A stretch of DNA of 64,000 nt. It comes from Candidatus Magasanikiibacteriota bacterium. GTDB lineage: Bacteria > Patescibacteriota > Patescibacteriia > Magasanikbacterales > UBA922. Positions 18,044 to 33,772 of this stretch are shown here, one piece after another. The notes beneath the pieces were generated by a model. The model did not search any database. It was given only the letters and a program-made list of their open reading frames with translations, and had not been told where the DNA came from. The DNA is taken from NCBI GenBank assembly GCA_043825135.1, contig JBDRSF010000015.1, forward strand, positions 1,559 to 65,558, written 5' to 3'. A program made the position numbers and the translations under genes. Every line of letters starts with the position of its first letter. Position 1 is the first letter of the stretch.

Positions 18044-18045
18044 CA

Positions 18046-18900: not shown

Positions 18901-18927
18901 CATTCTGAGTGAGGGTGTCTTTTGTTT

Positions 18928-19096
18928 GACCTCCCCTTGCTAAGGGGAGGAACACACGAGTTCGCCGTAGCTTTAGCGAAGGTGGACGAAGTGGGGTGGG
19001 GTCGGTTCGCGTAAATGCGATATTAAATATCCACAGACGAGACCCCCTAGCCCCTGATGCGAATCGGGGTGCATTCCCCCTTGGTAAGGGGGAACT
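18928..19096. repeat. family D MITE-like element, 'empty' copy (GACCTCCCCTTGCTAAGGGGAGGAACAC ... GATGCGAATCGGGGTGCATTCCCCCTTGGTAAGGGGGAAC)
   Basis: Same terminal hairpins flank the DUF559 gene at 33266-33745; internal GCTTTAGCGA and CCCCCTAGCC blocks shared with other families. Confidence 0.65.
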
Positions 19097-19198
19097 AAAC
19101 AACCATCACCACAAAGGAGGAGCTCAAGCAGTAAAATCGCTTTTTCTGGCGATTTTTGGTATACTGAATATAGTCAAATAAGTCTTAGTTATAATAAT

Positions 19199-19504
19199 AT
19201 GTCCAAAAAACCTTGGTTCATTGGTTTGGCACAGGCCTTGGGGGTAGTGATTTATTGTATTTTAGTTAGTGGGGTGTTTCAACTTATGCAAAAAGTAGAT
19301 GCTCAACCACCAGCGTTTTTTGCTGCGGCTTTTATGCTTTTGTTTTTAGTTTTCTCTGTCGCTACGGTTGGTTCTTTGGTATTTGGCTATTTTGCATATT
19401 TACTAGTTAATAAAAAAATTAAACCAGCTGTGCAAGTTTTGCTTTCAACTTTAGGATTTTGTTTGTTGTTTGTAATACTTATTATTAGTGTGTTGATGAT
19501 TTAA
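19199..19504 (+). CDS. small membrane protein (3 TM), hypothetical
   Basis: 101 aa, three hydrophobic helices. Confidence 0.5.
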   Translation: MSKKPWFIGLAQALGVVIYCILVSGVFQLMQKVDAQPPAFFAAAFMLLFLVFSVATVGSLVFGYFAYLLVNKKIKPAVQVLLSTLGFCLLFVILIISVLMI

Positions 19505-19518
19505 AAAAATATTAATTT

Positions 19519-20832
19519 ATGATAAAAAATACAACTAAAAAAAGGGAGACGATTTTTGATACCACTGATTTGGAAATAACTGAGGAAATAGAAAAAGCCT
19601 TGGAAATAATGGAGAATACACACGATACTGTGTATGTAACTGGAAAAGCGGGGACTGGGAAATCAACTTTACTAAAACATTTTTGTAATAATACGACAAA
19701 AAAAATCGCCATTGTGGCACCGACTGGGGTGGCGGCGATAAATGTGGGCGGAATGACAATTCATTCTTTTTTTAAATTTCCATTTGGAATTTTGGAAGAA
19801 GGTGATGTGGAGTTTTTGTTTTTCAAAAAGGAATTATTTGAAAATTTAGAAACATTAGTTATTGATGAAGTTTCAATGGTACGGGCAGATTTGATGAATG
19901 CGATTGATGTGTCACTGCGAAAAAATACTGGTAATAAAAATCTACCATTTGGCGGAGTGCAGGTGATTATGTTTGGTGATCTTTATCAGTTGCCACCAGT
20001 TGTGACTAGTATTGAGGAAAGGGATTATTTGCAAGAAAATTATGGTGGTTTGTATTTTTTTAATGCGCCAGTTTTTAAAGAAGTAAAACTTAGAAAAATT
20101 GATTTGAATAAAATCTTTCGTCAAAAGAATGATGAGATTTTTGTAAATGTTTTAAATAATATTAGAGAGTGTCGGGTTACTCAAACTGATTTGATGGCAT
20201 TAAATCAGCGGGTAAAAATTTATGATGAAAAATCAGGGCCAGCAATTGTGTTGGCAACGACAAATAATATTGTGGATTCCATAAATGAATCTGAGTTGAA
20301 AAAGATAAGGGAGAGAGAGTTTATATTTAAATATAATGCAAGCGGAGATTTTGATATAAAAAAATCCCCAGCTGAATTAAAATTAAAATTAAAAATTGGC
20401 GCGCAAGTAATGATGATAAAAAATGATAATCAAGTACCTAGGCGTTGGGCCAATGGTACCTTGGGGACAGTGGTCGGATTAAAAAAAGATAAAATTATTA
20501 TAAATATTGGCCGAGAGAATCATGCAATTGAAAAAGCGACTTGGGATGATTTTGAATATGAATATGATCGTGAACAGGAGACTGTGGAACGGTTTTCCAA
20601 AGGTTCGTTTATGCAATACCCAATCAAGTTAGCTTGGGCAGTGACAATCCACAAAAGCCAGGGCAAAACCTTTGAGCGAGTGATTATTGATCTTGGTCGC
20701 GGTGCTTTTGCTCATGGTCAAACCTATGTGGCGCTTAGTCGGTGTACTACGCTGAAGGAAATTTATATGAAAAAGCCAGTGCGATTATCTGATATTATTT
20801 TGGATCAGGAAGTGGTGGATTTTCATGCTTAG
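19519..20832 (+). CDS. Pif1/RecD-family (SF1B) DNA helicase
   Basis: Walker A TGKAGTGKSTLLK, Walker B LVIDEVSMV, FGDLYQLPPV, C-terminal TIHKSQGKTFERVIIDL and YVALSRCTTL (UvrD_C_2-like). Confidence 0.8.
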   Translation: MIKNTTKKRETIFDTTDLEITEEIEKALEIMENTHDTVYVTGKAGTGKSTLLKHFCNNTTKKIAIVAPTGVAAINVGGMTIHSFFKFPFGILEEGDVEFLFFKKELFENLETLVIDEVSMVRADLMNAIDVSLRKNTGNKNLPFGGVQVIMFGDLYQLPPVVTSIEERDYLQENYGGLYFFNAPVFKEVKLRKIDLNKIFRQKNDEIFVNVLNNIRECRVTQTDLMALNQRVKIYDEKSGPAIVLATTNNIVDSINESELKKIREREFIFKYNASGDFDIKKSPAELKLKLKIGAQVMMIKNDNQVPRRWANGTLGTVVGLKKDKIIINIGRENHAIEKATWDDFEYEYDREQETVERFSKGSFMQYPIKLAWAVTIHKSQGKTFERVIIDLGRGAFAHGQTYVALSRCTTLKEIYMKKPVRLSDIILDQEVVDFHA

Positions 20833-20852
20833 ATTTTTCTTATTTTATATTT

Positions 20853-21185
20853 ATGCGTATCTGGGACATTCATCCAAAATATTTATGTAGGAAGCATTTG
20901 CTAGCTGAACATCGTGAATTGCATGGGCTGTGGAATATTTTGACTAAACATAAAGCCAAGGGTGGTTATTCACGTCATCCTGAGACTTTGCGCTGGGTCG
21001 GCAAGACGCGAGCGCTTTTTGACAGGCACGAGGCGCTTACCAAGGAGTTTACCAGGCGTGGTTACAATCATCACACTCCACTTGATAAGAAATTAGCCAA
21101 AGGCAAAACCAAACAAGACGTTTTTGTTAATACTGTTGCCGAACAAAAAATTATTCTAAAAAATAAATCTTGTGATTGTTTTTAG
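20853..21185 (+). CDS. pyrimidine-dimer DNA glycosylase (T4 endonuclease V/DenV family)
   Basis: MRIWDIHPKYLCRKHLLAEHRELHGLW parallels T4 endoV LSELADQHLMAEHRELPRVF. Confidence 0.65.
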   Translation: MRIWDIHPKYLCRKHLLAEHRELHGLWNILTKHKAKGGYSRHPETLRWVGKTRALFDRHEALTKEFTRRGYNHHTPLDKKLAKGKTKQDVFVNTVAEQKIILKNKSCDCF

Positions 21186-21253
21186 TCTTTGTTTGGGGCA
21201 AAGTAATATTTATATATGTATTTAAAAAGTTTTTAATATGCTAAAATATAGTC

Positions 21254-21934
21254 ATGTTTGTCAATAAAAAAACAATTCATGATTTGCCGAGTTTCGAGCG
21301 TCCGCGAGAGAAATTGATTCATTATGGCCCAGAAAAATTAAGCACAACTGAACTCTTAGCCATTCTTTTGCGTTCCGGAAAAAAGGGAGAGAATGTTTTA
21401 ATAATGGCAGAAAAAATTATCAAGAAATTTTCCGAAAAGGGTTTGCAAAATGCTAATTTTGAAGAACTAAATTATTATTCCGGCCTAGGTCCGGCCAAGT
21501 CTTGTGAAATTATAGCTTGTTTTGAATTGGGACGACGATTTTTACAAAATAAAAAAGCGGTTTTGATTATGTCGCCGGAAGATGTGTGGGGGCAAATGGC
21601 TGATTTACGGGATAATAAAAAGGAACATTTCGTTGTTTTTTTTCTAGATATTCGCAATCAAAAAATAAAACGGCAAGTTGTGTCTATTGGTACGCTTAAT
21701 ACTAGTCTGGTACATCCTCGTGAAGTTTTTGAAGAAGCTATCCGCTATAACTCCGCTCAAATTATTGTGGCACACAATCATCCTTCAGGCGATACTGAGC
21801 CTTCGGATGAAGATTTACAAATTACTCACCGTCTCAAAAAAGCCGGAGAGATTTTGGGGATTGAATTACTGGATCATGTGATTGTGGCGGGGGAGGGATG
21901 GCTAAGTTTGAAGGAATCAAATAACTTGCTTTAA
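21254..21934 (+). CDS. radC: RadC-like JAB/MPN domain protein (UPF0758)
   Basis: Helix-hairpin-helix-like N-terminus; C-terminal JAMM motif HNHPSGDTEPSDEDLQITHRL. Confidence 0.8.
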   Translation: MFVNKKTIHDLPSFERPREKLIHYGPEKLSTTELLAILLRSGKKGENVLIMAEKIIKKFSEKGLQNANFEELNYYSGLGPAKSCEIIACFELGRRFLQNKKAVLIMSPEDVWGQMADLRDNKKEHFVVFFLDIRNQKIKRQVVSIGTLNTSLVHPREVFEEAIRYNSAQIIVAHNHPSGDTEPSDEDLQITHRLKKAGEILGIELLDHVIVAGEGWLSLKESNNLL

Positions 21935-21943
21935 TGTTGAATT

Positions 21944-22123
21944 ATGAGTAAAATAAGGGTTATAAACAAGAGATTAAAGAAAACCTGTGCCTGTTGTGGC
22001 AAAGAGGTTAATGTTATTGTTTATAGTGACAGAACTTACCGCGGAGGACACTATTTTTTCAAGATTCCTGTAAAAGGAGAGCAGATTGAGTATTGGGAAT
22101 GTCCGAAGTGTTATTGGGGGTAG
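21944..22123 (+). CDS. small zinc-ribbon protein (59 aa)
   Basis: MSKIRVINKRLKKTCACCGK...EYWECPKCYWG, two CxxC pairs; below ORF-track cutoff; followed by hairpin ATCCGCCCAAGGCGGAT. Confidence 0.4.
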   Translation: MSKIRVINKRLKKTCACCGKEVNVIVYSDRTYRGGHYFFKIPVKGEQIEYWECPKCYWG

Positions 22124-22286
22124 GTTTTAATCCGCCCAAGGCGGATGAAAGGGTTTAATTCCCCGAAGCTTGCTTCGAAACTTCTTATTCATACTCCGTC
22201 AGCTTGCTGCGGAGAAGTTGATTTAAAGATAAAAATATGATAGAAAATGATGCAGAGATTGTTATTATTAATATAGAGAAAATAAT

Positions 22287-22613
22287 ATGAATGATCTTAT
22301 AAATATAAAAGTAATTCAAAAAGATTTTAATGGTGAGAAGAAGAGGTTTGTTAATGCTAGGGAATTGCATCAGTGGTTGGGTGTGGGCAGAGACTTTTCA
22401 AACTGGATAAAAGACCGCATTGAAAAGTATGATTTTGTTGAAGATTTAGACTATTTTATAGCCTTCGCCAAATTTGGCGATGGACAAAAAGCCCATAACT
22501 CAGGCAAAATTATTGATGCCAAAACTGGTAAAATTTTACCAAAGGAGTATGTCCTTTCTGTGGATATGGCAAAAGAATTTAGCCAAGAAGATATTCAAAA
22601 ACTTATTGGATGA
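22287..22613 (+). CDS. phage antirepressor-like protein (AntA/KilAC-type)
   Basis: DFNGEKKRFVNARELHQWLGVGRDFSNWIKDRIEKYDFVEDLDYF resembles AntA/AntB N-terminal domain. Confidence 0.5.
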   Translation: MNDLINIKVIQKDFNGEKKRFVNARELHQWLGVGRDFSNWIKDRIEKYDFVEDLDYFIAFAKFGDGQKAHNSGKIIDAKTGKILPKEYVLSVDMAKEFSQEDIQKLIG

Positions 22614-22626
22614 GGAAAGTATAGAG

Positions 22627-22995
22627 ATGTTTAATATTATCAAAAAAACAGAATTGATTGTTTTGGTGGTTGAATTTGGTCATAGGCAGGGGGTTTATAA
22701 AGATAAATATAAAATGAAAATTATTGATAAATTAAAATTTATTTGGAAGATATTATTGAAAGCTGAAAATATAGAGAATAATCAGCGAATTTTGGATTGC
22801 CAAGAAAAGCTTTTTGAAAAAGAGGAAAAACTAAGAGATAAGCAGAAAATTATAGACGATTTGAAGACAAAAAATCAGGAATTAGAGAATGAAAATAAAG
22901 AATTAAAGAATGGACAAAATAATCAAATTAAAGATTCGCAGCGAAGAAATTTTGAAGAAACAAAAAGAAATTTGAGGGAAGATTCAAATAAATAA
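22627..22995 (+). CDS. coiled-coil protein (hypothetical)
   Basis: Start at first ATG after the upstream stop; long heptad-like K/E-rich region KLFEKEEKLRDKQKIIDDLKTKNQELENENKELK. Confidence 0.4.
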   Translation: MFNIIKKTELIVLVVEFGHRQGVYKDKYKMKIIDKLKFIWKILLKAENIENNQRILDCQEKLFEKEEKLRDKQKIIDDLKTKNQELENENKELKNGQNNQIKDSQRRNFEETKRNLREDSNK

Positions 22996-22998
22996 TTT

Positions 22999-25167
22999 AT
23001 GTCCAAATACGAAAAATTTTCAAAAGAGGAATTGATTATGTTGGCTGAAAAGCAGGATAGTGAATTAGCGTCCAAGAAATATGGATTGGTTTGGGATGCA
23101 GAACGTGAGCCGGAGCAGGTGGTTTTGGATTGTGCTGAGAATTTACCTGTGTTAAAACGGGTTAAGGGCAAAGAAATTCGCACAAACGACGACGAAGATA
23201 ATATTTTAATAGAAGGCGACAATTATCACGCTTTAACTGTTTTAAATTATACTCATAAAGAAAAAATTGATGTTATTTATATTGATCCGCCATATAATAC
23301 GGGGAATCAGGATTTTAAATACAACGACCGATTTGTGGATAAAACTGACGGTTTTCGTCACAGCAAATGGCTCAATTTCATGGCAAAACGTCTCGTTCTC
23401 GCCCACGACCTGTTGAAAGATACTGGTGTGATTTTTATTTCTATTGATGATAATGAACAAGCACAGTTGAAAATGTTGTGTGATAAGGTCTTTGGACAGG
23501 ATAATTTTGTTGGTCTTTTGCCGAGATTGATAAAAAAAAGTGGAAAATCTACGGAAAGTGTTTCAAAAAACAATGATTATGTTCTGATTTATTTTAAAGG
23601 TGGTAGTGCAAAATTAAGTAGTATAGAACATAATGATGCTGGATTTAAGTACAAGGATGAATTTTTTGAAGAAAGAGGATTTTATAAATTAAACCAGACT
23701 CTTGACTATGATTCTATTCAATATTCAAAATCATTAGATTACAAAATAATCATTGAAGGCGAAGAAATTTTACCGGGAGGAGTTTCCGAAAAGAAAATGA
23801 ATGAAAGGATTCAAAATAATCCAATGCGTGATTTTTGTTGGAGATGGTCAAGAAAATTATTTGATTTCGGTCTAAAAAATGATTTTATTGTTGTTAAAAA
23901 ATACAAAAATAAACCTAGCAGAATTTATACAAAGACATATCAAAATGCCACAATTTCAAAAAAAGAAAATGGTGAATATTTTGTAGAAATAGTGCAACGC
24001 TCAAAACCAATGACCACTATTGATCTGATTGAAAATGAATATTCAAATGATGGGGCAAAAAAAGAATTAAAAAACATTTTCGGAGAAGTACAATTTGATT
24101 ATCCAAAACCAACAAGTTTAATTAAGCAACTATTGAGAGTTTCATCTGAGCAGCATTCCTTAATTCTTGATTTCATGGCTGGTTCTGGCACAACTGGTCA
24201 TGCAGTTTTGGACTTGAACAAAGAAGATGGTGGGAGTAGAAAATTTATTTTATGCACCAACAATGAGGTGAATGGTCTTGAAAAGGAGTTGAAAGAAAAA
24301 GGTTTAAGTGAAAAAGAGATTGAAAAGTATGGAATTTGTCAGAAAGTTACTTATCCCCGTTTAGAAAAAGTTATCAAAGGCTACAAGAAAAATGGCAATG
24401 GAGAGAAGGTGGAAGGTTTAGGTGGAAATTTGCAGTACTTTAGGACGGCTTTGGTGAAAAAAACATCAGCGGTAAATACAAAAATAGATATTACATCTAA
24501 ATGTACGGAAATGTTGTGCGTGAAGGAAAACATTTTTAATTTTGAAAAAGAGAGGGAGGATTATAAGATCTTTTCTTCAAACAAAAAGGATAAATTTCTT
24601 TGTATTTATTATAATTTTCTTGAAAAAAGCTTTGAAGAATTTTTGTCTGAGTTAAAAAAAATAAAAGAAGAAAAAGCAGTCTATATTTTCTCTTTGAAGG
24701 ACGAAATTGATAAGAAAATTACTTCTAGCGTTGAAAATGCTAGATTTGAAGCTATTCCGCATAAGATTTTGAAGGTTTATGAAGAGTGGGTCAAGAAAAA
24801 CATACCAATGAGGAGCGATTTGATTCTTTTGGAATTTGCGAGAGCTAAGGATAAAGTCTTTGAGCAAAAAGATAAAGACGAAAGCGCTAGACTATTAAGA
24901 ATAGTTTTGGAAAAAGTAATAGTCAAAATTTCACAAAAAAATAATGTTGAATTTTTAAAAGAAAATTCTAAACAAGAAAAAGCGTCAATTTTGAACGATA
25001 AGTTGAAAAGTGAAAATATTTTTTCCAAAGTGGATTGGGAAGAAAACAAAACTTATTTGGCAATTGGAAACAATGCTTCGCATGGGGAATATGGAGATTA
25101 TAATATAAAACAAGTTGAAAATTTTTATAGGCATATTCAAATACTTTTAAATAAATTTGGGGTATAA
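22999..25167 (+). CDS. mod: Type III restriction-modification methyltransferase (Mod; N6-adenine)
   Basis: Motif IV IYIDPPYNTGN, motif I DFMAGSGTTGHAV; 722 aa with C-terminal extension. Confidence 0.85.
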   Translation: MSKYEKFSKEELIMLAEKQDSELASKKYGLVWDAEREPEQVVLDCAENLPVLKRVKGKEIRTNDDEDNILIEGDNYHALTVLNYTHKEKIDVIYIDPPYNTGNQDFKYNDRFVDKTDGFRHSKWLNFMAKRLVLAHDLLKDTGVIFISIDDNEQAQLKMLCDKVFGQDNFVGLLPRLIKKSGKSTESVSKNNDYVLIYFKGGSAKLSSIEHNDAGFKYKDEFFEERGFYKLNQTLDYDSIQYSKSLDYKIIIEGEEILPGGVSEKKMNERIQNNPMRDFCWRWSRKLFDFGLKNDFIVVKKYKNKPSRIYTKTYQNATISKKENGEYFVEIVQRSKPMTTIDLIENEYSNDGAKKELKNIFGEVQFDYPKPTSLIKQLLRVSSEQHSLILDFMAGSGTTGHAVLDLNKEDGGSRKFILCTNNEVNGLEKELKEKGLSEKEIEKYGICQKVTYPRLEKVIKGYKKNGNGEKVEGLGGNLQYFRTALVKKTSAVNTKIDITSKCTEMLCVKENIFNFEKEREDYKIFSSNKKDKFLCIYYNFLEKSFEEFLSELKKIKEEKAVYIFSLKDEIDKKITSSVENARFEAIPHKILKVYEEWVKKNIPMRSDLILLEFARAKDKVFEQKDKDESARLLRIVLEKVIVKISQKNNVEFLKENSKQEKASILNDKLKSENIFSKVDWEENKTYLAIGNNASHGEYGDYNIKQVENFYRHIQILLNKFGV

Positions 25168-25176
25168 TATAAATAT

Positions 25177-27573: not shown

Positions 27574-27604
27574 AATAATCATACTATTTTCAATACATCA
27601 TATT

Positions 27605-28213
27605 ATGTCGAACATATATCAATTCAAAATCACCCTTCAAGATAGTAAGCCACCAATTTGGCGACGGATTCAGGTATCGGAGAACTATACATTCTGGGAT
27701 TTGCATGTAGCCATAAATGAAGCCATGGGCTGGTATGATTGTCATTTGCATGCTTTTGTTAGAAGAAATCTCAAAACACTGAGAGAAGAATTGCGTATTC
27801 ATACAGATTTGGCAGACGAACCATGGGATTTGTCTGATGAAGTCAAGGAGGAAAGAGAAACGTTGATTAAAGATGTTTTAACCTTAGAAAAGCCACGGAT
27901 TAAGTATGATTATGATTTTGGAGATAGTTGGCAACATTATGTGGTGTTGGAAAAGATTTTGCCAGCAGAAAAGGGTGTAGAATATCCTAGGTGTGTGGCT
28001 GGCAAGCGGGCTTGCCCACCAGAAGATGTGGGCGCTATTTGGGGGTATTATGATTTTGTAAAGATTATGAATAATCCTCAGCATTCAGAATATAAAGAAA
28101 TGGTCGAATGGATTGGCGAAGATTCTTGGGATCCTGATGAATTTAATCCAGATGAGGTGTTTTTTGATGATCCCGAAGAAATTTGGGATGAGATGCAGAA
28201 GTCTTCTTTTTAG
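27605..28213 (+). CDS. plasmid pRiA4b ORF-3 family protein
   Basis: IYQFKITLQDSKPPIWRRIQV...FWDLHVAINEAMGWYDCHLHAF matches the pRiA4b ORF-3 domain hallmark; start at internal Met. Confidence 0.7.
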   Translation: MSNIYQFKITLQDSKPPIWRRIQVSENYTFWDLHVAINEAMGWYDCHLHAFVRRNLKTLREELRIHTDLADEPWDLSDEVKEERETLIKDVLTLEKPRIKYDYDFGDSWQHYVVLEKILPAEKGVEYPRCVAGKRACPPEDVGAIWGYYDFVKIMNNPQHSEYKEMVEWIGEDSWDPDEFNPDEVFFDDPEEIWDEMQKSSF

Positions 28214-28222
28214 ATAATCAAT

Positions 28223-28259
28223 ATCTATACATATATTTATACATGTATCTATATATAAA
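28223..28259 (+). promoter_or_regulatory. 37-bp cis element ATCTATACATATATTTATACATGTATCTATATATAAA (copy 1), ends 3 nt before the AbrB-like gene start
   Basis: Identical 37-mer recurs at 29641-29677 immediately upstream of the 29683 operon; contains dyad ATACATGTAT. Confidence 0.6.
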
Positions 28260-28262
28260 CAT

Positions 28263-28436
28263 ATGCGAAAAATAATAAATAGACAAATAAGAAAAATATT
28301 TAAATCTGGACCAAGTTATGTTATCACTTTACCAGTTGAATTAGTCCAAGAGCTCAAGTGGAAAGAAAGACAAAAATTGGAATTGGTGATTGATGAGAAG
28401 AATCAGACGATTAAAATTAGTGATTGGAAGGAATAA
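28263..28436 (+). CDS. AbrB/MazE/SpoVT-family DNA-binding protein (57 aa)
   Basis: SGPSYVITLPVELVQELKWKERQKLELVIDEKNQTIKI is a swapped-hairpin AbrB-like domain; below ORF-track cutoff; terminator 28453-28478 follows. Confidence 0.6.
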   Translation: MRKIINRQIRKIFKSGPSYVITLPVELVQELKWKERQKLELVIDEKNQTIKISDWKE

Positions 28437-28452
28437 ATTATGAAAACAGAAA

Positions 28453-28478
28453 ACAAGCCCCTCTTCGGGCTTGTTTTT
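28453..28478 (+). terminator. rho-independent terminator
   Basis: ACAAGCCCCTCTTCGGGCTTGTTTTT. Confidence 0.6.
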
Positions 28479-28485
28479 ATACTTG

Positions 28486-28560
28486 TCAATAGTAACAAGT
28501 TATTAACATATTTTTGTCAATAAACTTGACAAGTTTTTTACGCTAGTATATACTATAAGT
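28486..28560 (+). promoter_or_regulatory. promoter (TTGACA-17-TATATACT) embedded in inverted repeats CTTGTCAA/TTGACAAG
   Basis: ACTTGTCAATAGTAACAAGT ... TTGTCAATAAACTTGACAAGT; likely autoregulatory operator for the HTH antitoxin. Confidence 0.45.
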
Positions 28561-28581
28561 AGCTAAATTAACATAAATATT

Positions 28582-29301
28582 ATGTCTAAAAAACAGCTTG
28601 ACTTACGTGTTTTGCGTAAACAATTTAATATGTCGCAGGAAGATTTGGCGCGCCGACTGGGGATGTCTCGCCCTACTTTGATGAAGGTAGAAAAAGGAGA
28701 AAGAGTCCTCTCTCTTGCTGAAAGAGATAAAGTGAGAGATATTTTTGATTTGGTAAAAGATACAGAGTCAGTTGATACTAACATACGAATTAGTATTCCA
28801 CAGAAAAATTTGGATAAGTTTAAGCAGGTTTTGTTGTATATTTTAGAACGTGTTGGTAATAAACCCAATGTTGGCATGACTGTATTATATAAACTTTTGT
28901 ATTTTATTGATTTTGATTATTATGAAAAATATGAAGAACAGTTGATGGGGTTGACTTATATCAAAAATCATCATGGCCCCACACCAAAAGAATTTATTAA
29001 AGTTGTAGAGCAAATGAAACAGGTTGGTGAATTGGAAGAGATAAAAAGCAAGTATTTTACTTATGAGCAAAAAAAGTTTTTACCAGTAATGGAAAATGAT
29101 TTATCCCTTATTTCTGGTCGTGAGTTGGAACATATAGATTGGGAATTAGGGAGGCTGGCTAATTTGAGCGCTAAGCAAATATCAGATTTGTCACATATAG
29201 ATACTCCGTGGGCAGTAACTGATGATGGTGGGCAGATAGATTATGAATTTGTTTTTTACCGTCCGGAAGAAACATCAGTGAGGGAATATGAATCGCTTTG
29301 A
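28582..29301 (+). CDS. HTH (Xre)-Panacea(DUF4065/SocA-like) domain antitoxin
   Basis: N-terminal Xre-type HTH (FNMSQEDLARRLGMSRPTLMKVEKGER); C-terminal TVLYKLLYFIDFDYYEKYEEQLMGLTYIKNHHGPTPKEF matches Panacea-domain antitoxins. Confidence 0.6.
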   Translation: MSKKQLDLRVLRKQFNMSQEDLARRLGMSRPTLMKVEKGERVLSLAERDKVRDIFDLVKDTESVDTNIRISIPQKNLDKFKQVLLYILERVGNKPNVGMTVLYKLLYFIDFDYYEKYEEQLMGLTYIKNHHGPTPKEFIKVVEQMKQVGELEEIKSKYFTYEQKKFLPVMENDLSLISGRELEHIDWELGRLANLSAKQISDLSHIDTPWAVTDDGGQIDYEFVFYRPEETSVREYESL

Positions 29302-29635
29302 TTATTCTCCACAATTTAAAAAAGATTTAAAGCGTCTGACAAAAAAATACAATAGTCTTCCTAAAGATTTGCGTCGATTGGAGATTTTTCTTGAACAATA
29401 TCCTAATGGTATTGGTGCTTCATTTGCAGTTTTGCATCACCGGCCATCTGTTTGTATAATTAAAGCTCGTTTGGCTTGTGAGTCATTAAGAGCAAGGTCT
29501 TTGCGTGTTATTTATGCTTACAAAGAGAGTGAAAAAAGAATAGAATTTATTGAATTATATTTTAAGGGTGATAAATTAAGGGAGGATGAATTACGGATTA
29601 GGGACTATTTAAATGATTTAGATAATCTTAGTTAG
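29288..29635 (+). CDS. putative type II toxin, RelE/ParE-superfamily-like
   Basis: Overlaps antitoxin by 14 nt; RVIYAYKESEKRIEFIELYFKGD resembles the conserved C-terminal RelE/ParE strand; assignment tentative. Confidence 0.4.
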   Translation: MNRFDYSPQFKKDLKRLTKKYNSLPKDLRRLEIFLEQYPNGIGASFAVLHHRPSVCIIKARLACESLRARSLRVIYAYKESEKRIEFIELYFKGDKLREDELRIRDYLNDLDNLS

Positions 29636-29640
29636 AACAA

Positions 29641-29677
29641 TATCTATACATATATTTATACATGTATCTATATATAA
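29641..29677 (+). promoter_or_regulatory. 37-bp cis element (copy 2) immediately upstream of the 29683-32648 operon
   Basis: Identical to 28223-28259. Confidence 0.6.
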
Positions 29678-29682
29678 AAAAT

Positions 29683-30621
29683 ATGCAAAATACTTTAAAA
29701 AAGTTATTGGAGACAATTAAAAATGGATCCCCCACAGAAGTTAAAAGCGCCCAAAAAGAAGTGGAAAAATTTTGGCATAATGTATATATACCTGAGCGTG
29801 AGAAGGGTCGGGAGGCTTTTAAAATTTTTCTAGAAGAACTAAAGAATTTTGAAAGTATAAAAGACATTGATCATCAATGCTACTTTATCAACACTCTTAA
29901 GTGTCCACTTTATGCCATAGGTGAAGAATATTTTGGGAAGTGGGCGGATTTTTTCTTGCATTATATTCAACACCCATCTGGTAAAATTCGTCAGGCTGTT
30001 ATCAGTGCTGTGGATTATTTGTTAATGGACATAGCAGAAGGACTTGACTCGTACGACAAAAAAGTGGTATATGACAAACACAACAAAAATATGAATTATT
30101 TTTGTAATTTTGTTTGTATTGTTGAAAATTTATTAGCAAAATATGATGAGCCAAGGTTTAGGAAATTTAAATATGTTAGCAGTATGCCAGCATCGGTTTA
30201 CAAGAGTTTGCAAATATTGATAACTCAAAAATTATTTAGAAGCGAGTATTATGAAAAATTATATGAGGAATTTTTAAAAAATATATCCAATGAACAGGAC
30301 AAAAGACGTGTAAAAATTAACAAAAAAGATTTAGCTATTAAACGACGGGAGATTGAGCAAAAAATGCGGGCTGCTATAATTTATTATGAATTAGAAGATG
30401 TTTTGAGTTTTGATGAACTTAAAAGAATCGTAAAAACAGAACAAATCAATAAAGATAATAATCCAATTACCCCCATTGGGAAAAAATTATTAGACAATAT
30501 AGACAATATGGAAGAAGCACAGAAAGTGTTAAATATCATTGTTGAGATGTGGAATCATTTTCCCCATGATTATTTAAATGGTTTGTCTCCGCGTGAGATG
30601 GGTGATAAAATTTATAATTAA
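29683..30621 (+). CDS. hypothetical alpha-helical protein
   Basis: ~313 aa, start at internal ATG after the repeat (coordinate +/-1); no recognisable motif. Confidence 0.45.
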   Translation: MQNTLKKLLETIKNGSPTEVKSAQKEVEKFWHNVYIPEREKGREAFKIFLEELKNFESIKDIDHQCYFINTLKCPLYAIGEEYFGKWADFFLHYIQHPSGKIRQAVISAVDYLLMDIAEGLDSYDKKVVYDKHNKNMNYFCNFVCIVENLLAKYDEPRFRKFKYVSSMPASVYKSLQILITQKLFRSEYYEKLYEEFLKNISNEQDKRRVKINKKDLAIKRREIEQKMRAAIIYYELEDVLSFDELKRIVKTEQINKDNNPITPIGKKLLDNIDNMEEAQKVLNIIVEMWNHFPHDYLNGLSPREMGDKIYN

Positions 30622-30654
30622 AATTATGGCATGATGCTGTGGAGAAATTGTTTT

Positions 30655-31062
30655 ATGTCTATTCAGATTCCAAAAAGTGAAATAAAAATAACTTTTGCGC
30701 GGTCATCTGGTGCGGGTGGGCAAAATGTTAATAAGACTTCAACCAAAGCGATTGTACACTGGTCAGTTGGGAAGTCACAGGTTTTGACTACCGAAGAAAA
30801 AGCTCGGGTGCGATTAAAATTGGCCAATAGAATAAATAATAATGATGAGGTGGTTATATTAGCAGAAGAAGAACGATCACAACCTCAGAATCGTATATCG
30901 GCGGTTTCACGATTGCAAGCACTGGTAAAGCGCGCCTTACATATTCCAAAAAAACGCCGGCCGACTCGACCAACCAAGGCTTCTAAAATAAAACGGTTGG
31001 AATCTAAAAAAAGACAGTCTTTATTGAAAGCGGGAAGACGGAGTATTGAGAAAGTGGTATAA
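30655..31062 (+). CDS. arfB: alternative ribosome-rescue factor ArfB (peptidyl-tRNA hydrolase, GGQ)
   Basis: ITFARSSGAGGQNVNKTSTKA (GGQ motif) and basic C-terminal tail KRRPTRPTKASKIKRLESKKR. Confidence 0.8.
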   Translation: MSIQIPKSEIKITFARSSGAGGQNVNKTSTKAIVHWSVGKSQVLTTEEKARVRLKLANRINNNDEVVILAEEERSQPQNRISAVSRLQALVKRALHIPKKRRPTRPTKASKIKRLESKKRQSLLKAGRRSIEKVV

Positions 31063-31082
31063 TATAATTATTAACAATTTTT

Positions 31083-31817
31083 ATGTCTAAGCCGATTTTT
31101 GATCTTAAAAAAATAAAATTCTCCATTGATCCTGGTACTTATGAGCGAGCGGTTGATTTGTATGAAAAAAAGAAAATCAAAGAGTTTAGCGATGATGATT
31201 ATGTTGGTTATTCTGCTATTGTCCAAGGCACGCAAGCTTATGAAGTATATGTACATGCTCGTTCTTTTGATTTAGGTAATTGTGATTGTTATTTAGGTCA
31301 AAATAATAAATTGTGTAAACATATGGTGGCAGTGGCGATTTATGCAGTTATGGACGGAAAACCACTTAAAGAAGAAGATAAAAAAAATGAAACAGAAGTT
31401 TCTTGTAGCGGTAAAATAGGAGAATTAAGTAAAGAAAGACTTAAAACAGTAAAAGCTGATATTTCAGGAGCTATGCGATATATTAAGTCGTATAACGGCC
31501 CTTCGCGTCTTTGGTTTGCCTATCAAGATTCGCTGTCAGAAGGGTGTGCTCGGTTATCAGCTATAATATCTGAATTACCAGTGAGCTTGCAGACAGCTAA
31601 ATTATTGATAAATTTACTTTTACGCTTAGATAAAAAATTGTGTAATGCGGTGGATGACTCAGATGGTACAGTTGGTGGTTTTATGATGGAAGTGGTTGGT
31701 GTAATAAAAGAATATATTGAGATTGATCCGGTTTGTGCCGAGTCAATTACATTGTTGGTAGGCAAAGAAACTTGCTTTGAATGGGGTGATCCGTTGTGGA
31801 ATTTGATTGAAGAATAA
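31083..31817 (+). CDS. SWIM zinc-finger domain protein
   Basis: CDCYLGQNNKLCKHMVAV fits SWIM CxCxnCxH. Confidence 0.55.
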   Translation: MSKPIFDLKKIKFSIDPGTYERAVDLYEKKKIKEFSDDDYVGYSAIVQGTQAYEVYVHARSFDLGNCDCYLGQNNKLCKHMVAVAIYAVMDGKPLKEEDKKNETEVSCSGKIGELSKERLKTVKADISGAMRYIKSYNGPSRLWFAYQDSLSEGCARLSAIISELPVSLQTAKLLINLLLRLDKKLCNAVDDSDGTVGGFMMEVVGVIKEYIEIDPVCAESITLLVGKETCFEWGDPLWNLIEE

Positions 31818-31859
31818 TTTATGTTATAATAGACGAAATTAATTTTAATTATAAATATT

Positions 31860-32648
31860 ATGACTAAGAAAAAAACTACGAGTAAAGTATTATCTGTCAA
31901 AAAAAAGGATGTTGGGTCAAAAGTCAGTTTATTGAATGGGTCAGAGGCCATTCATACTCAATTACAGCAGTGGGCTCATACTGGCAATGAAGAATCTTTA
32001 AAAAAATTGGAAAATTTTATTGCTAAAGAAGAAAATAAAGATCTGCGTTTTTATGCTACCTTGGCTTATGGTGAGGCGCAGTATTTTTACTATGGTCCAC
32101 AAAATGAAAAGGAAGAAAGAGAATTTGAATTAGCACGCCTGATAAAAAAAGAAGATGAATATTTGTGGAAATTAATAAATGAGTCTGAGCGATTAGAATG
32201 TAAAATTGGTAAACAAAAAATAGAAGAAGCAGTCTTCAAGCGTTTACTGAAAAAACAAAATGAAAAGATGAAAACAGCTTGGCAACATCGTTATATAGGG
32301 GATGTTATGGGGTTGGAAAGACGATTACAAAAAGTAAAAGAAGATATTGAATATCAAATTGCTTGGCTAAAAGAAGCTAGGGCTATGATAACAACCAAGC
32401 GTTACCAAAACATTCCTGATGATGTTTTTGAACATATGCATACTGATTTTGGAGAAGGTGCTTGCTGGACTGATGATATGAGTTGTTGTGGTTCAAATTA
32501 CTGTGATTGCGATGATGATTGTTGTGACTGTGACGAAGAAGATTGTTGCTGTCCTCATTGTGGATCAGATGATGCAGTGGAAATAGATGATGAAATATAT
32601 CCAGTTGGTAATTATGAAGAATTTAGTATTGACGATATCCCTTTTTAA
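31860..32648 (+). CDS. hypothetical protein with acidic Cys-rich C-terminus
   Basis: C-terminus CWTDDMSCCGSNYCDCDDDCCDCDEEDCCCPHCGSDD, a metal-binding-like cluster. Confidence 0.45.
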   Translation: MTKKKTTSKVLSVKKKDVGSKVSLLNGSEAIHTQLQQWAHTGNEESLKKLENFIAKEENKDLRFYATLAYGEAQYFYYGPQNEKEEREFELARLIKKEDEYLWKLINESERLECKIGKQKIEEAVFKRLLKKQNEKMKTAWQHRYIGDVMGLERRLQKVKEDIEYQIAWLKEARAMITTKRYQNIPDDVFEHMHTDFGEGACWTDDMSCCGSNYCDCDDDCCDCDEEDCCCPHCGSDDAVEIDDEIYPVGNYEEFSIDDIPF

Positions 32649-32917
32649 AGCATTTTTATCTGTTTAAAATTAAAACAAAGTTATCCACACTAAAATTTAA
32701 TTATTAAAAATTTTGTGTTATAATATTTTTATAATTTTTTTAATTAAAATATATGACAAAAAAAGGTTGAGGTATTACTGCAATAGTTGTATTAGCAGTT
32801 TTTTTATTTATAATTTTCACCTACTCGTTTGTTTACGATCGGCTGGAATTAGTCAGCGAAGGTCTGGCCAGTCCCAAGTTTCCATTTAGTAAATATTCGC
32901 AGGAAGAATTAAATACC

Positions 32918-33262
32918 ATGTTTCCGCAGTATGTAAATGAAAACGTAGAAACAACACAGACGCCAGAACAAACTCACGCGATTTTTTTGAATAATCTAAA
33001 AGCTGGCAATATTGACGAGGCTGTGGAGTGTTGTTTTATGAAAGGGGATTGGGAAAAGATGAAAGAGGGTTTAAAAAAAGTGGAAGATCAGGGTGAATTG
33101 CAGATCATGATTAAAGATTTAGATACAGAAATTACAAAAGATTTGGATTTAGGCAATAAGGCAACATATACTTATTCGGTTGAGAGGAATGGAGAGTCAT
33201 TAGGTACGGGTATAGAATTTATAAAAAATTCAGCTGGGGTTTGGTTGATTGAGAGTTTGTAA
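32918..33262 (+). CDS. hypothetical protein; frame stays open upstream to an in-frame TGA at 32768, preceded by ATG 32753
   Basis: Upstream in-frame segment GITAIVVLAVFLFIIFTYSFVYDRLELVSEG encodes a TM helix; MTKKG-TGA-GITAIVV... Confidence 0.45.
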   Translation: MFPQYVNENVETTQTPEQTHAIFLNNLKAGNIDEAVECCFMKGDWEKMKEGLKKVEDQGELQIMIKDLDTEITKDLDLGNKATYTYSVERNGESLGTGIEFIKNSAGVWLIESL

Positions 33263-33265
33263 TTT

Positions 33266-33745
33266 GACCTCCCCTTACGAAGGGGAGGAACACCTGATTC
33301 GCATCAGGGGGAGGGGTTTTTCTATGGAAAAAATATTTAATCAGTCTAAGCACAAAGATCTAAGAAAGATATTGAGAGAAGATTGTACTAAAAGTGAAGC
33401 GGTGTTGTGGAAATATTTAAAAGGAAAACAAATGGGATATAGATTCCGTCGTCAACACGGTATAGGTAGATATATAGTAGATTTTTATTGTCCGAAATTA
33501 AAGCTGATTATAGAAGTGGATGGTTATACGCATATAGATCATGATCAATATATATACGATATGGAGAGAGAAAATTATTTGCGTAGTTTAGGTCTGGTGG
33601 TTAAGAGATATACAGGTGAACAGATTTTTAAACATATTAGGGAAGTCTATCTTGATTTGCAGAATATTTGTGAAGAGTTGAGTAAGGGTTAATGCAAAAA
33701 CCCCCTAGCCACTTCGTGTGCATTCCCCCTTGAAAAGGGGGAACC
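33266..33745. mobile_element. family D MITE-like element carrying a DUF559 endonuclease gene
   Basis: Left end GACCTCCCCTTACGAAGGGGAGGAACAC-CTGATTCGCATCAGGGGG; right end CCCCCTAGCC...GCATTCCCCCTTGAAAAGGGGGAACC; same ends as the cargo-less element at 18928-19096. Confidence 0.55.
33324..33692 (+). CDS. DUF559 (Vsr/MutH-like) endonuclease-domain protein
   Basis: RFRRQHGIGRYIVDFYCPKLKLIIEVDGYTH...RENYLRSLGLVVKRY matches the DUF559 signature; start at ATG after the terminal repeat. Confidence 0.7.
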   Translation: MEKIFNQSKHKDLRKILREDCTKSEAVLWKYLKGKQMGYRFRRQHGIGRYIVDFYCPKLKLIIEVDGYTHIDHDQYIYDMERENYLRSLGLVVKRYTGEQIFKHIREVYLDLQNICEELSKG

Positions 33746-33772
33746 AAACAAAGTTTTTTTTAAAAAAATTCT

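What the first reader, a model, noticed from the sequence alone, without database searches (positions are those of the whole stretch)
19199..33745. Accessory/defence island between two family D repeats
This ~14.5-kb same-strand block contains a Pif1-like helicase, a T4 DenV-like pyrimidine-dimer glycosylase, RadC, an AntA-like antirepressor, a Type III R-M system, a pRiA4b ORF-3 protein, an AbrB-like regulator, an HTH-Panacea/RelE-like TA pair, arfB, a SWIM zinc-finger protein, an acidic Cys-rich protein and a DUF559 nuclease. It has several phage/plasmid-associated genes, no integrase, and is bounded by homologous repeats (18928-19096 and 33266-33745).
Basis: inference. Interest (0 to 1): 0.6.

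Follow-up and report, generated by a model that had tools for sequence, protein, structure and literature searches.

The report
Mosaic defence hotspot, not one island
The flagged 14.5-kb block in this Candidatus Magasanikbacteria (CPR) chromosome is conserved DNA-repair genes interrupted by two strain-specific insertions carrying a Type III restriction system and toxin-antitoxin genes, and the repeats said to bound it are small hairpin elements scattered through the lineage, so it is an ordinary variable defence region.

Summary
The gene calls are confirmed and the two family D copies lie at the stated coordinates. They share only their hairpin termini. The interpretation of one accessory island bounded by repeats fails.

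Related Magasanikbacteria contigs keep a backbone in order: YgjP, exonuclease, Pif1, DenV, ArfB, orf169, DUF559 and the LTD protein. About 24% of the interval is this backbone.

The rest is window-specific:
- Insertion A (21184-30652, 9.47 kb) lies exactly between the DenV stop and the ArfB start. It carries RadC, AntA, Type III Mod-Res, pRiA4b-ORF3, an AbrB/MazE gene, a Panacea TA pair and orf312.
- Insertion B (about 31.07-32.70 kb) carries the SWIM and Cys-rich proteins.

Insertion A is a mosaic. RadC-AntA recurs at 92.7% nt identity in front of a Type I R-M system. Mod-Res recurs (Res 87-88% aa) downstream of divergent RadC genes in unrelated contexts.

D-left is inserted into an exonuclease/orf101 spacer that is otherwise conserved. 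D-right contains the DUF559 gene, which sits next to orf169 and LTD in relatives down to 57% identity. D copies occur at other sites and orientations in relatives.

No integrase, att sites or prophage genes were found. The region is a new member of a known kind, an integrase-less defence hotspot.

The parts
18924..19102 (+). D-left: solo family D element (177 nt, no ORF). It has a 5' hairpin CCTCCCCTT-GCT-AAGGGGAGG and a 3' hairpin TTCCCCCTT-GGT-AAGGGGGAA.
   Evidence: Absent from the same spacer in L002/L013. Folds strongly as ssDNA (z -4.5).
19199..19504 (+). orf101, a small hydrophobic membrane protein. It occupies the variable slot between the exonuclease and Pif1.
   Evidence: Translation. 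Present next to the exonuclease in L002/L013 (84% aa) and absent in L011, L012 and L015.
19519..20832 (+). Pif1-like helicase (backbone gene).
   Evidence: PF05970 E 4e-30. 85-95% aa identical in L011-L016, in conserved order.
20853..21185 (+). DenV-like pyrimidine-dimer glycosylase (backbone gene). Its last 4 codons were replaced at the insertion junction.
   Evidence: PF03013. Relatives end ...CDCFLDKK* and the window ends ...CDCF*.
21184..30652 (+). Insertion A: a 9.47-kb window-specific mosaic lying exactly between the DenV stop and the ArfB start.
   Evidence: blastn against L011, L015, L018 and L013. An 8-bp direct repeat ATTGTTTT sits at both junctions (21175-21182 and 30647-30654), with one copy in the empty sites.
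21254..21934 (+). RadC (UPF0758_N + JAB), first gene of the RadC-AntA module. Module homology spans 21216-22701.
   Evidence: 92.7% nt identical to L037, where a Type I R-M system follows instead.
21944..22123 (+). orf59, a zinc-ribbon-like protein with CxxC...CxxC.
   Evidence: Conserved in L037.
22287..22613 (+). AntA-domain protein (108 aa).
   Evidence: PF08346. PHROG anti-repressor families. 95% aa identical in L037.
22999..25167 (+). Type III R-M methyltransferase (Mod). Its central target-recognition region, about 23511-24162, has diverged.
   Evidence: PADLOC MTase_III E 3.9e-85. The nt homology to L026/L028 is interrupted in the centre.
25177..27573 (+). Type III R-M restriction subunit (Res).
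   Evidence: PF04851 and PADLOC REase_III. Homologues at 87-88% aa lie in unrelated contexts.
27605..28213 (+). pRiA4b ORF-3-like protein.
   Evidence: PF07929 E 1.1e-65. Start codon checked.
28219..28259 (+). 41-nt box, copy 1, made of three 12-nt units (ATATCTATACAT-like). It sits just upstream of the AbrB/MazE start codon.
28263..28436 (+). AbrB/MazE-family small DNA-binding protein (57 aa).
   Evidence: PF04014 30.5 bits. The homologous gene plus box follows YgjP in L014, L015 and L016.
28582..29301 (+). HTH-Panacea (SocA-like) antitoxin.
   Evidence: PF13274 and PF01381.
29288..29635 (+). Putative cognate toxin (115 aa), overlapping the antitoxin gene by 14 nt.
   Evidence: Weak RelE_StbE hit. 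A homologue lies at another slot in L012. The structure model was uninformative.
29638..29678 (+). 41-nt box, copy 2 (identical to copy 1), just upstream of orf312.
29683..30621 (+). orf312, with no family assignment.
30655..31062 (+). ArfB ribosome-rescue hydrolase (backbone gene).
   Evidence: NF006718 133 bits against a cutoff of 100. It directly follows DenV, or Pif1, in the relatives.
31070..32700 (+). Insertion B (approximate limits): SWIM zinc-finger protein 31083-31817 and acidic Cys-rich protein 31860-32648.
   Evidence: Absent between ArfB and orf169 in L011 and L018/19. SWIM matches PADLOC PDC-S62, E 7.9e-14.
32753..33262 (+). orf169 homologue (backbone gene) with an in-frame TGA at codon 6 (32768-32770).
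33263..33749 (+). D-right: the D termini enclosing the DUF559 (Vsr-like) nuclease gene 33324-33692.
   Evidence: DUF559 stays in synteny with orf169 and LTD in L011 and L018-L025.
33773..37798 (+). LTD-domain surface protein (1341 aa), a backbone gene to the right.
   Evidence: 59-80% aa identical and syntenic in L011 and L018-L025.

Best explanation
The interval is part of a chromosomal, integrase-less hypervariable neighbourhood of DNA-repair and defence genes in a Candidatus Magasanikbacteria (CPR) genome.

BACKBONE. A vertically inherited backbone runs RecQ, GIY-YIG, YgjP, ExoX-like exonuclease, Pif1, DenV, ArfB, orf169, DUF559, LTD protein. It provides several intergenic slots into which small cassettes are gained, lost and swapped.

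INSERTIONS. In this lineage a 9.47-kb mosaic (RadC-AntA module, Type III Mod-Res, pRiA4b-ORF3, AbrB/MazE with its repeat box, HTH-Panacea plus toxin, orf312) landed precisely between DenV and ArfB. A 1.6-kb SWIM/Cys-rich pair landed between ArfB and orf169.

FUNCTION (inferred from the families).
- The Type III system methylates self DNA and cuts unmodified incoming DNA.
- The TA pairs stabilise the region or abort infection.

MECHANISM OF GAIN (inferred).
- Incoming DNA recombines through conserved neighbours such as RadC-AntA.
- For the DenV|ArfB event, recombination probably used microhomology, because an 8-bp ATTGTTTT sits at both junctions.

THE D REPEATS. They are unrelated to the gain. 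They are a lineage-specific REP/MITE-like hairpin element. Its long form brackets the resident DUF559 gene, and its 140-177-nt solo forms sit in intergenic spacers.
For: SHOWN.
- Backbone order is conserved in L011, L012, L013/L002, L015 and L018-20, with DenV (or Pif1) abutting ArfB.
- An NJ tree of YgjP+exo+Pif1 nests the window among lineages with the empty site.
- The DenV C-terminus is truncated only in the window.
- The insertion is a mosaic. RadC-AntA is 92.7% nt identical to L037, where Type I R-M follows.
- Res is 87-88% aa identical in L026-L031, whose RadC is only 51-57% identical. In L026/27, the only one of these contigs with other genes shared with the window, the ABC-transporter genes are 44-65% identical.
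- Relative L032 has RadC at 64% but Res at 63%, so the two gene histories are incongruent.
- The AbrB gene plus box follows YgjP in L014, L015 and L016. The toxin homologue lies upstream of RhuM/Fic in L012.
- Only Mod-Res is compositionally atypical.
- No integrase was found, and only AntA matches a phage family.
- D element behaviour is documented.
Against: - Only one genome shows the DenV|ArfB slot filled, so different cargo in the same slot is shown directly only for the position downstream of RadC-AntA (Type III here, Type I in L037).
- The tree is star-like, so loss in a common ancestor of the relatives is not excluded.
- A distant Magasanikbacteria contig (L032) also has RadC...Mod-Res...Pif1...ArfB close together. 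This could mean the neighbourhood is old.
- The right junction (orf312|ArfB) has no independent assembly support.
- The recombination mechanism is inferred. The 8-bp junction repeat was found post hoc (10 copies of the 8-mer in 64 kb).
Confidence: 0.8

Rival explanations
1. 19199-33745 is a single mobile or accessory island whose ends are the two D repeats, acting as att-like or recombination boundaries.
For: Two direct-orientation copies of the D termini flank the block. Most of the enclosed DNA is accessory.
Against: - Pif1, DenV, ArfB, orf169 and DUF559 inside the block are conserved in order in the relatives.
- L002/L013 have the exonuclease and orf101 adjacent without D-left.
- DUF559 within D-right stays in synteny with LTD down to 57% identity.
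- D copies occur at other sites and orientations.
- No integrase was found.
Confidence: 0.03
2. The RadC/Type III R-M block is ancestral at this locus. The close relatives lost it by deletion between DenV and ArfB, so the polarity is the reverse of a gain.
For: - Distant relatives L032 and L033 keep RadC, Mod-Res and Pif1 within a few kb of each other, and ArfB as well in L032.
- The tree of close relatives has short internal branches.
Against: - The window is nested among four lineages with the empty site.
- All empty sites share the same DenV C-terminus and spacer, whereas the window's DenV end is truncated at the junction.
- The parts of the block have very different identity levels to different donor-like genomes (92.7% nt RadC-AntA with L037; 82-85% nt Mod-Res with lineages whose RadC is 51-57% aa identical and, in L026/27, whose ABC-transporter genes are 44-65%). 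This indicates separate acquisitions.
Confidence: 0.12
3. The block is a decayed prophage or integrative/conjugative element, suggested by AntA, DenV, Pif1, RadC and pRiA4b ORF-3.
For: AntA matches phage anti-repressor PHROGs. Several of the families are common on mobile elements (Pfam names).
Against: - There are no structural, packaging, lysis, integrase, relaxase or T4SS genes.
- Pif1 and DenV are backbone genes.
- No close RadC or Res relatives occur on IMG/VR contigs.
Confidence: 0.03
4. The arrangement is a metagenome-assembly chimera that joins contigs from different strains at repeated sequence.
For: The source is a MAG contig. The region contains repeats (D elements and the 41-nt boxes).
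Against: - An independent Logan assembly is 100% identical over 12084-22213, across D-left and the DenV|RadC junction.
- The junctions fall at gene ends with intact ORFs.
- The right junction is untested.
Confidence: 0.03

Closest known systems
Defence islands and integrase-less chromosomal defence hotspots (Makarova et al., PMC3632139; core-gene-flanked hotspots described in Pseudomonas and E. coli, from my own knowledge)
   Same: R-M, TA and candidate defence genes are clustered between conserved chromosomal genes. Content is variable among close relatives. There is no recombinase. Cassettes are swapped at fixed positions (Type III versus Type I R-M after RadC-AntA).
   Different: - The host is an ultra-small CPR bacterium.
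- The backbone is a set of DNA-repair genes plus the ribosome-rescue gene arfB.
- The slots are very small intergenic gaps, and DenV and ArfB overlap or abut in the empty state.
- Only a handful of genomes were sampled.
Genomic islands with R-M systems reported in Patescibacteria (PMC12455944)
   Same: Horizontally acquired regions carrying complete R-M systems in CPR genomes, with exchange mostly among Patescibacteria.
   Different: That study used composition-based island prediction and described a Type I system. Here the borders come from direct empty-site comparison, and the cargo is a Type III system with a RadC-AntA leader module.
Type III R-M loci with a conserved res gene and a hypervariable central region in mod (Haemophilus influenzae, PMC1557822)
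   Same: Res is highly conserved (87-88% aa). The centre of Mod (about 23511-24162) has diverged while its ends stay 75-85% nt identical.
   Different: No simple-sequence repeat for phase variation was looked for or noticed. The comparison here is between different CPR lineages, not between strains.
REP/REPIN elements with a flanked single-copy RAYT gene, and MITEs (from my own knowledge: Nunvar 2010; Bertels & Rainey 2011)
   Same: - The D elements are short, strongly folding, hairpin-ended intergenic repeats.
- One locus holds a single-copy, vertically inherited nuclease gene bracketed by the same hairpins in inverted orientation.
   Different: - The enclosed gene is a DUF559/Vsr-like PD-(D/E)xK protein, not a Y1 (IS200/IS605-type) transposase.
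- No target-site duplication was seen.
- Copy number in the whole genome is unknown.
- No evidence links DUF559 to the movement of D elements.
PanA/PanT (Panacea-domain antitoxin) type II TA pairs (from my own knowledge: Kurata et al. 2022)
   Same: An HTH + Panacea antitoxin gene overlaps a small downstream ORF by 14 nt.
   Different: The toxin family is unresolved: weak RelE/StbE similarity below the cutoff and an uninformative model.

Membership tests
Site-specific integrative genomic island (att-bounded) | An integrase or recombinase is encoded at one end. | tested here: not met
   No integrase or transposase domain in any ORF of 19199-33745 at E<=0.01, nor in the flanks that were scanned.
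Site-specific integrative genomic island (att-bounded) | The flanking direct repeats were created by, or used for, insertion of the unit. | tested here: not met
   D-left is an independent insertion in the exo/orf101 spacer. D-right encloses a conserved resident gene. D copies occur elsewhere in relatives.
Site-specific integrative genomic island (att-bounded) | The whole unit is absent from relatives, leaving the flanks joined. | tested here: not met
   Relatives retain Pif1, DenV, ArfB, orf169 and DUF559. Only 21184-30652 and about 31.07-32.70 kb are missing.
Defence island / integrase-less hotspot | Conserved flanking genes with presence/absence or replacement of the intervening cargo among relatives. 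| tested here: met
   - The DenV|ArfB slot is empty in 5 lineages and filled here.
- The GIY-YIG|YgjP slot holds 5 genes here, a Y-family polymerase plus a LexA-like gene in L011, and nothing in L015.
- The exo|Pif1 slot holds different cargo in the window, L011 and L014.

Defence island / integrase-less hotspot | The cargo is enriched in recognised defence systems. | tested here: met
   Type III R-M (PADLOC), a Panacea TA pair and an AbrB/MazE gene, and a SWIM protein matching candidate family PDC-S62. In L037 the same position holds a Type I R-M system.
Type III restriction-modification system | A Mod subunit with an N6/N4 methyltransferase domain of the Type III class. | tested here: met
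   PF01555 E 4.9e-31. PADLOC MTase_III E 3.9e-85.
Type III restriction-modification system | A Res subunit with an SF2 helicase/ResIII domain, encoded immediately downstream on the same strand. | tested here: met
   PF04851 E 1e-18. PADLOC REase_III E 4.4e-19. There is a 9-nt gap after mod.
Type III restriction-modification system | A catalytic endonuclease motif in Res, plus methylation and restriction activity. | not tested
   The motif was not inspected. Activity needs a methylome analysis or biochemistry.
Panacea (PanA/PanT) toxin-antitoxin pair | An antitoxin carrying the SocA/Panacea domain. | tested here: met
   PF13274 59.7 bits against a cutoff of 25.7.
Panacea (PanA/PanT) toxin-antitoxin pair | An adjacent gene encoding a recognisable toxin. 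| tested here: inconclusive
   - Overlapping 115-aa ORF.
- TIGR02385 20.5 bits, below the cutoff of 27.9.
- No PDB sequence hit.
- AF2 pLDDT 56, with helix-helix-4 strands-helix order.
- Foldseek returned nothing significant.
REP/REPIN-RAYT system | Dispersed short hairpin repeats in intergenic DNA. | tested here: met
   2 copies in the window and 1-3 per 10-20 kb locus in close relatives. All copies checked against gene calls lie in intergenic spacers. z -4.5 to -5.2 as ssDNA.
REP/REPIN-RAYT system | A cognate Y1 (RAYT) transposase flanked by the repeats. | tested here: not met
   The flanked gene is DUF559/Vsr-like (PF04480), not Y1_Tnp.
MITE | Terminal inverted repeats plus a target-site duplication. 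| tested here: inconclusive
   The ends are hairpins and can pair with each other. No duplication is evident when the filled window site is compared with the empty L002/L013 site.

The most novel reading that the evidence does not exclude
The DUF559 (Vsr-like PD-(D/E)xK) gene and the D elements may form a REP/RAYT-like partnership built on a different nuclease fold. DUF559 would be a single-copy, vertically inherited nuclease bracketed by inverted hairpin repeats. It would recognise those hairpins and disperse or maintain the 140-177-nt solo D elements across Magasanikbacteria genomes.

Two observations fit this reading:
- The solo D sequence equals the upstream plus downstream flank of DUF559 with the gene removed.
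- Distant relatives keep a hairpin of different sequence at the same position next to their DUF559 gene.

A weaker second reading is that RadC-AntA is a dedicated leader module next to which whole R-M systems (Type I or Type III) are exchanged.
Probability: 0.12. Interest if true: 0.65.

Novelty: new member of a known kind. Interest (0 to 1): 0.3.

Why it matters
The case gives a base-pair-resolved example of how a streamlined CPR genome, with no integrase or transposase in the region, gains and swaps defence cassettes between tightly packed core genes. The empty and filled sites are both in hand. It shows that repeat pairs seen in a single genome are poor evidence for island borders where REP/MITE-like elements are abundant.

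Two leads are testable. First, R-M systems of different types sit behind the same RadC-AntA module. Second, a conserved DUF559 nuclease gene is bracketed by the same hairpins that are dispersed as solo elements. Neither lead changes the verdict on the finding itself, which is ordinary.

Tried and rejected
- Exact-protein look-ups for the LTD protein, ArfB and DUF559 found nothing on record. The window's own contig was only identified through P0001 and P0121 (NCBI MAG, 67,292 bp).
- The genome-contig scan anchored on the exonuclease gave one useful close relative (L002). The relatives at 70% identity (L003, L004, L006) share almost no synteny, so they say nothing about the island.
- Codon usage and GC3 per gene do not separate the block from its flanks.
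- Rfam found only the four tRNAs and no family for the D elements.
- Literature searches for DUF559 with repeats, and for RadC with Type III R-M, found no prior description.
- For the putative toxin, the PDB sequence search, a single-sequence AlphaFold model (pLDDT 56) and Foldseek were all uninformative. orf312 had no meaningful PDB hit.
- IMG/VR scans with RadC and Res found no close viral relatives, so a phage vector is not supported.
- I first read the perfect 41-nt direct repeat flanking the AbrB/Panacea cassette as a recombination scar. I now favour an operator-like box of 12-nt units, because it recurs upstream of the AbrB-like gene (L014, L015, L016) and upstream of YgjP (L014, L016). 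A recent duplication is not excluded.
- I considered a frameshifted AntA gene (22287-22613 plus 22474-22995). I rejected this because the 108-aa AntA ORF is conserved at 95% in L037.

Full report
WHAT THE WINDOW IS. The window is a piece of bacterial chromosome. It carries TIM, Fpg, tRNAs, RecQ, MetK, GpsA, the CCA-adding enzyme and YidC. GC is about 35%, nearly all genes are on the + strand, and GC skew is monotonic. Exact matches of its DUF559 and Res proteins are annotated as a Candidatus Magasanikbacteria MAG on a 67,292-bp contig. The closest loci fetched are Magasanikbacteria or mislabelled relatives. TGA is used as an ordinary stop codon in 8 of 57 ORFs.

CHECK OF THE OBSERVATION: GENES.
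- Pif1, DenV-like Pyr_excise, RadC and AntA.
- A complete Type III Mod-Res pair (PADLOC MTase_III 3.9e-85; REase_III 4.4e-19).
- pRiA4b ORF-3 and an AbrB/MazE protein (PF04014).
- An HTH-Panacea antitoxin.
- ArfB (above the NCBIfam equivalog cutoff).
- A SWIM protein, an acidic protein with 13 Cys and DUF559.

The 'RelE-like' toxin is only weakly supported. A structure model was too poor to decide. No ORF in the interval has an integrase or transposase domain.

CHECK OF THE OBSERVATION: REPEATS. The two D copies are at the stated coordinates, but they share only their termini. These are a 5' end TGACCTCCCCTT-NNN-AAGGGGAGGAACAC and a 3' end GTGCATTCCCCCTT-NNN-AAGGGGGAAC. The left copy is a 177-nt element with no gene. 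The right copy encloses the DUF559 ORF. An independent Logan assembly is 100% identical to window 12084-22213.

I anchored on the exonuclease in GTDB genomes and on Pif1 in JGI metagenomes. This gave seven close relatives with 77-95% aa identity in backbone genes. tblastn and blastn against the window show a conserved order: RecQ(-), GIY-YIG(-), YgjP, exonuclease, Pif1, DenV, ArfB. In L011 and L018-20 the order continues with orf169, DUF559 and the LTD protein.
- In L011, L015, L018/19 and L013/L002, the DenV stop and the ArfB start are 4-19 nt apart or overlap. In L012, Pif1 abuts ArfB.
- Against L011 the window-specific DNA is 21184-30652 (9,469 nt) and about 31.07-32.70 kb.
- About 24% of the proposed island is therefore conserved backbone and 76% is accessory.

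POLARITY: GAIN OR LOSS. Three observations favour gain in the window lineage.
- An NJ tree of concatenated YgjP, exonuclease and Pif1 nucleotides gives (L014,(L015,(L011,(window,L012,L013)))). The window is nested among lineages with the empty site.
- All empty sites share the DenV C-terminus ...CDCFLDKK* (L013...LLHKK*). The window's DenV ends ...CDCF* exactly at the junction.
- An 8-bp ATTGTTTT sits at both junctions (21175-21182 and 30647-30654) and once in the empty sites. The 8-mer occurs 10 times in 64 kb, so this is suggestive but post hoc.

I put gain at roughly 0.7-0.8. The tree is star-like, and the distant contig L032 also has RadC, Mod-Res, Pif1 and ArfB close together.

INSERTION A IS A MOSAIC, NOT ONE TRANSFERRED UNIT.
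- Window 21216-22701 (RadC, a 59-aa zinc-ribbon ORF, AntA) is 92.7% nt identical to L037. Homology stops there, and L037 carries a Type I system (HsdM, HsdS, a DUF4143 ATPase, HsdR) where the window has Type III Mod-Res.
- Res has 87-88% aa homologues in L026/27 (RecJ-RadC-Mod-Res-RNaseH...) and L028-31 (MraZ-RsmH-FtsI-RadC-orf274-Mod-Res). In those contigs RadC is only 51-57% identical to the window's. In L026/27, the only one of them with other genes shared with the window, the ABC-transporter genes are 44-65% identical.
- The Magasanikbacteria contig L032 has RadC at 64% but Res at only 63%. The histories of RadC and Res are therefore incongruent. Mod-Res has been exchanged among CPR lineages, yet it lies downstream of a RadC gene in all five contexts where Res was the anchor.
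- The centre of Mod (about 23511-24162) has lost nucleotide homology while its ends and Res keep 75-85%. This is the classic target-recognition-domain pattern described for H. influenzae mod (PMC1557822).
- The AbrB/MazE gene with its upstream box recurs after YgjP in L014, L015 and L016. There it is followed by a GNAT gene in L015 (Pfam); L014 has an unannotated 194-aa ORF at the same position.
- The toxin homologue lies upstream of RhuM/Fic in L012.
- Only the Mod-Res stretch is a tetranucleotide outlier (z 2.1-2.5). Codon usage is not discriminating.

OTHER VARIABLE SLOTS IN THE NEIGHBOURHOOD. The variable character does not start at 19199.
- Between GIY-YIG and YgjP the window has Bro-N, two unknown ORFs, an S51 peptidase and RhuM/Fic. 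L011 has a Y-family polymerase plus a LexA/S24 protein there, and L015 has nothing.
- Between the exonuclease and Pif1 the window has D-left and orf101. L011 has two unknown ORFs. L014 has an inverted D element, a Fic protein and a small ORF. L012 and L015 have nothing.
- At greater distance (L021; DUF559 57% identical) an HI0933-like gene lies only 3 kb upstream of orf169-DUF559-LTD, with MsrB, MsrA, VKOR and two small unannotated ORFs between them. In the window about 24 kb separates the HI0933-like gene from orf169. This suggests the whole stretch is a long-standing flexible region. Orthology of the HI0933-like genes rests only on the Pfam annotation.

THE D REPEATS.
- L002/L013 have the exonuclease and orf101 adjacent with a 120-nt spacer. 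The window has 343 nt, and the extra 229 nt (18924-19152) contain D-left.
- L014/L016 carry a 148-nt D in the opposite orientation just downstream of the exonuclease, and another after Pif1. L011 carries extra copies between DUF559 and LTD.
- An nhmmer profile found D copies only in the close clade, in intergenic spacers wherever checked against gene calls, within about 0.5 Mb of held sequence.
- DUF559 homologues from 79% down to 57% identity are always found in the trio orf169-DUF559-LTD. The gene is resident, not cargo.
- In L018-20 and L011 it is bracketed by inverted copies of the 5' hairpin and by GGGGTGGGG/CCCCACCCC tracts. A solo D equals the upstream plus downstream flank without the gene. 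L021 keeps a hairpin of different sequence at the same place.
- Solo D elements fold strongly as single-stranded DNA (z -4.5 to -5.2), and in L014 the two ends pair with each other.
- Rfam has no matching family, and I found no literature on this.
- The D repeats are therefore REP/MITE-like elements. Two of them lying 14.6 kb apart is incidental.

MECHANISM: WHAT IS SHOWN AND WHAT IS INFERRED.
- Shown: the slots, the empty sites, the mosaic origins and the absence of recombinase genes.
- Inferred from family knowledge: the Type III system methylates one strand of its site and cleaves unmodified DNA after Res translocation; the Panacea pair acts as a type II TA module; AbrB/MazE binds the 3 x 12-nt box found upstream of its own gene and of orf312.
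- Inferred: cassette gain by recombination of imported DNA on conserved neighbours, or by microhomology.
- Phage delivery is not supported. Only AntA has PHROG hits, and IMG/VR holds no close RadC or Res relatives.

COMPARISON WITH KNOWN SYSTEMS AND VERDICT. This is a defence island or hotspot in the sense of Makarova et al. (PMC3632139). It is consistent with reports of R-M-bearing genomic islands in Patescibacteria (PMC12455944). It fails every tested criterion for an att-bounded integrative island. Novelty is 'new member of a known kind', with interest about 0.3.

The less ordinary leads are:
- The DUF559/hairpin arrangement, which is a REP/RAYT-like analogy. It fails membership because the gene is not a Y1 transposase.
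- The recurrent placement of different R-M types behind RadC-AntA.
- An unbiased RadC sample (P0330), which showed an identical RadC-Fic pair, preceded by an HTH gene in three of four contigs, in at least three different contexts. RadC-led modules therefore seem to be generally mobile in CPR.

Noticed in passing
window 32753-33262 (TGA at 32768-32770): The conserved membrane-anchored gene orf169, upstream of DUF559, has an in-frame TGA at codon 6 where L011 and L018 have TGG (Trp). The ORF called at 32918-33262 is the downstream remnant. TGA is a normal stop in this genome. The cause is therefore a nonsense mutation or a sequencing error.
   Followed up: partly
window 33263-33749; L018 1117-1624; L011 12674-13331; L021 2900-3485: The DUF559 gene is bracketed by inverted hairpin repeats. 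The solo D element equals its two flanks without the gene. A distant relative keeps a hairpin of different sequence at the same position. This is a possible REP/RAYT-like partnership with a Vsr-like nuclease.
   Followed up: partly
window 28219-28259 and 29638-29678; L014 2256-2304 and 2868-2906; L015 8003-8053: A perfect 41-nt direct repeat built of three 12-nt units (ATATCTATACAT-like) sits just upstream of the AbrB/MazE gene and of orf312. It flanks the 1.4-kb AbrB/Panacea TA cassette. Related boxes precede the AbrB-like gene (L014, L015, L016) and YgjP (L014, L016). It looks like an operator, but it could also be a cassette boundary.
   Followed up: partly
L026, L028, L032, L033, L037 and window 21254-27573: In all five contexts found with Res as the anchor, Type III Mod-Res lies downstream of a RadC gene, with 0-6 variable genes between. 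The RadC and Res identities are incongruent. A 92%-identical RadC-AntA module is followed by a Type I R-M system in L037. Pif1 follows Res in L032 and L033.
   Followed up: partly
L038-L041: An identical RadC protein (P0330) paired with a Fic protein, and preceded by an HTH gene in three of the four contigs, occurs in at least three different flanking contexts. One is next to the EF-G/ribosomal-protein operon and a Transposase_mut fragment. RadC-led modules therefore appear to be mobile in CPR genomes.
   Followed up: no
window 2753-3048: With introns allowed, ARAGORN calls a tRNA-Tyr(GTA) with a 213-nt intron in the anticodon loop. A second tRNA-like 3' half (3179-3228, 90% identical over 50 nt) follows. 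Neither was reported by the default tRNA scan or by Rfam.
   Followed up: partly
window 9302-9354, 41019-41097, 52665-52743, 60330-60382 and many other intergenic GC-rich patches: The genome carries several other families of GC-rich intergenic repeats, with motifs such as GTCATTCCGACCGAAA, CGCAATGACA and GATGCGAATCGG. These contrast with the 35% GC background. The GATGCGAATCGG motif also occurs inside the D elements.
   Followed up: no
L011 4014-6092 (- strand): In the closest relative, the slot between GIY-YIG and YgjP holds a Y-family polymerase (IMS) plus a LexA/S24-like gene, an SOS-mutagenesis-type pair. The window has Bro-N, S51 peptidase and RhuM/Fic there.
   Followed up: no
window 15593-15760 vs L037 10116-10283: A 168-nt stretch upstream of and into the S51 peptidase gene is 98% identical to a segment inside the RhuM-like region of L037. 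This is much higher than the surrounding identity and hints at very recent exchange of small segments.
   Followed up: no
L015 12493-20142, L013 5203-11643, L014 8995-16370: Three relatives share a different conserved gene series downstream of ArfB or Pif1: a 641-657 aa protein, ORFs of 365 aa (all three) and 125-139 aa (L013, L014, L015 respectively 125, 125, 139) on the minus strand, a 120-aa ORF (L014, L015), and proteins of 567-575 aa and 355-363 aa. The window has none of these there. This marks a rearrangement breakpoint after ArfB between two groups of genomes.
   Followed up: no
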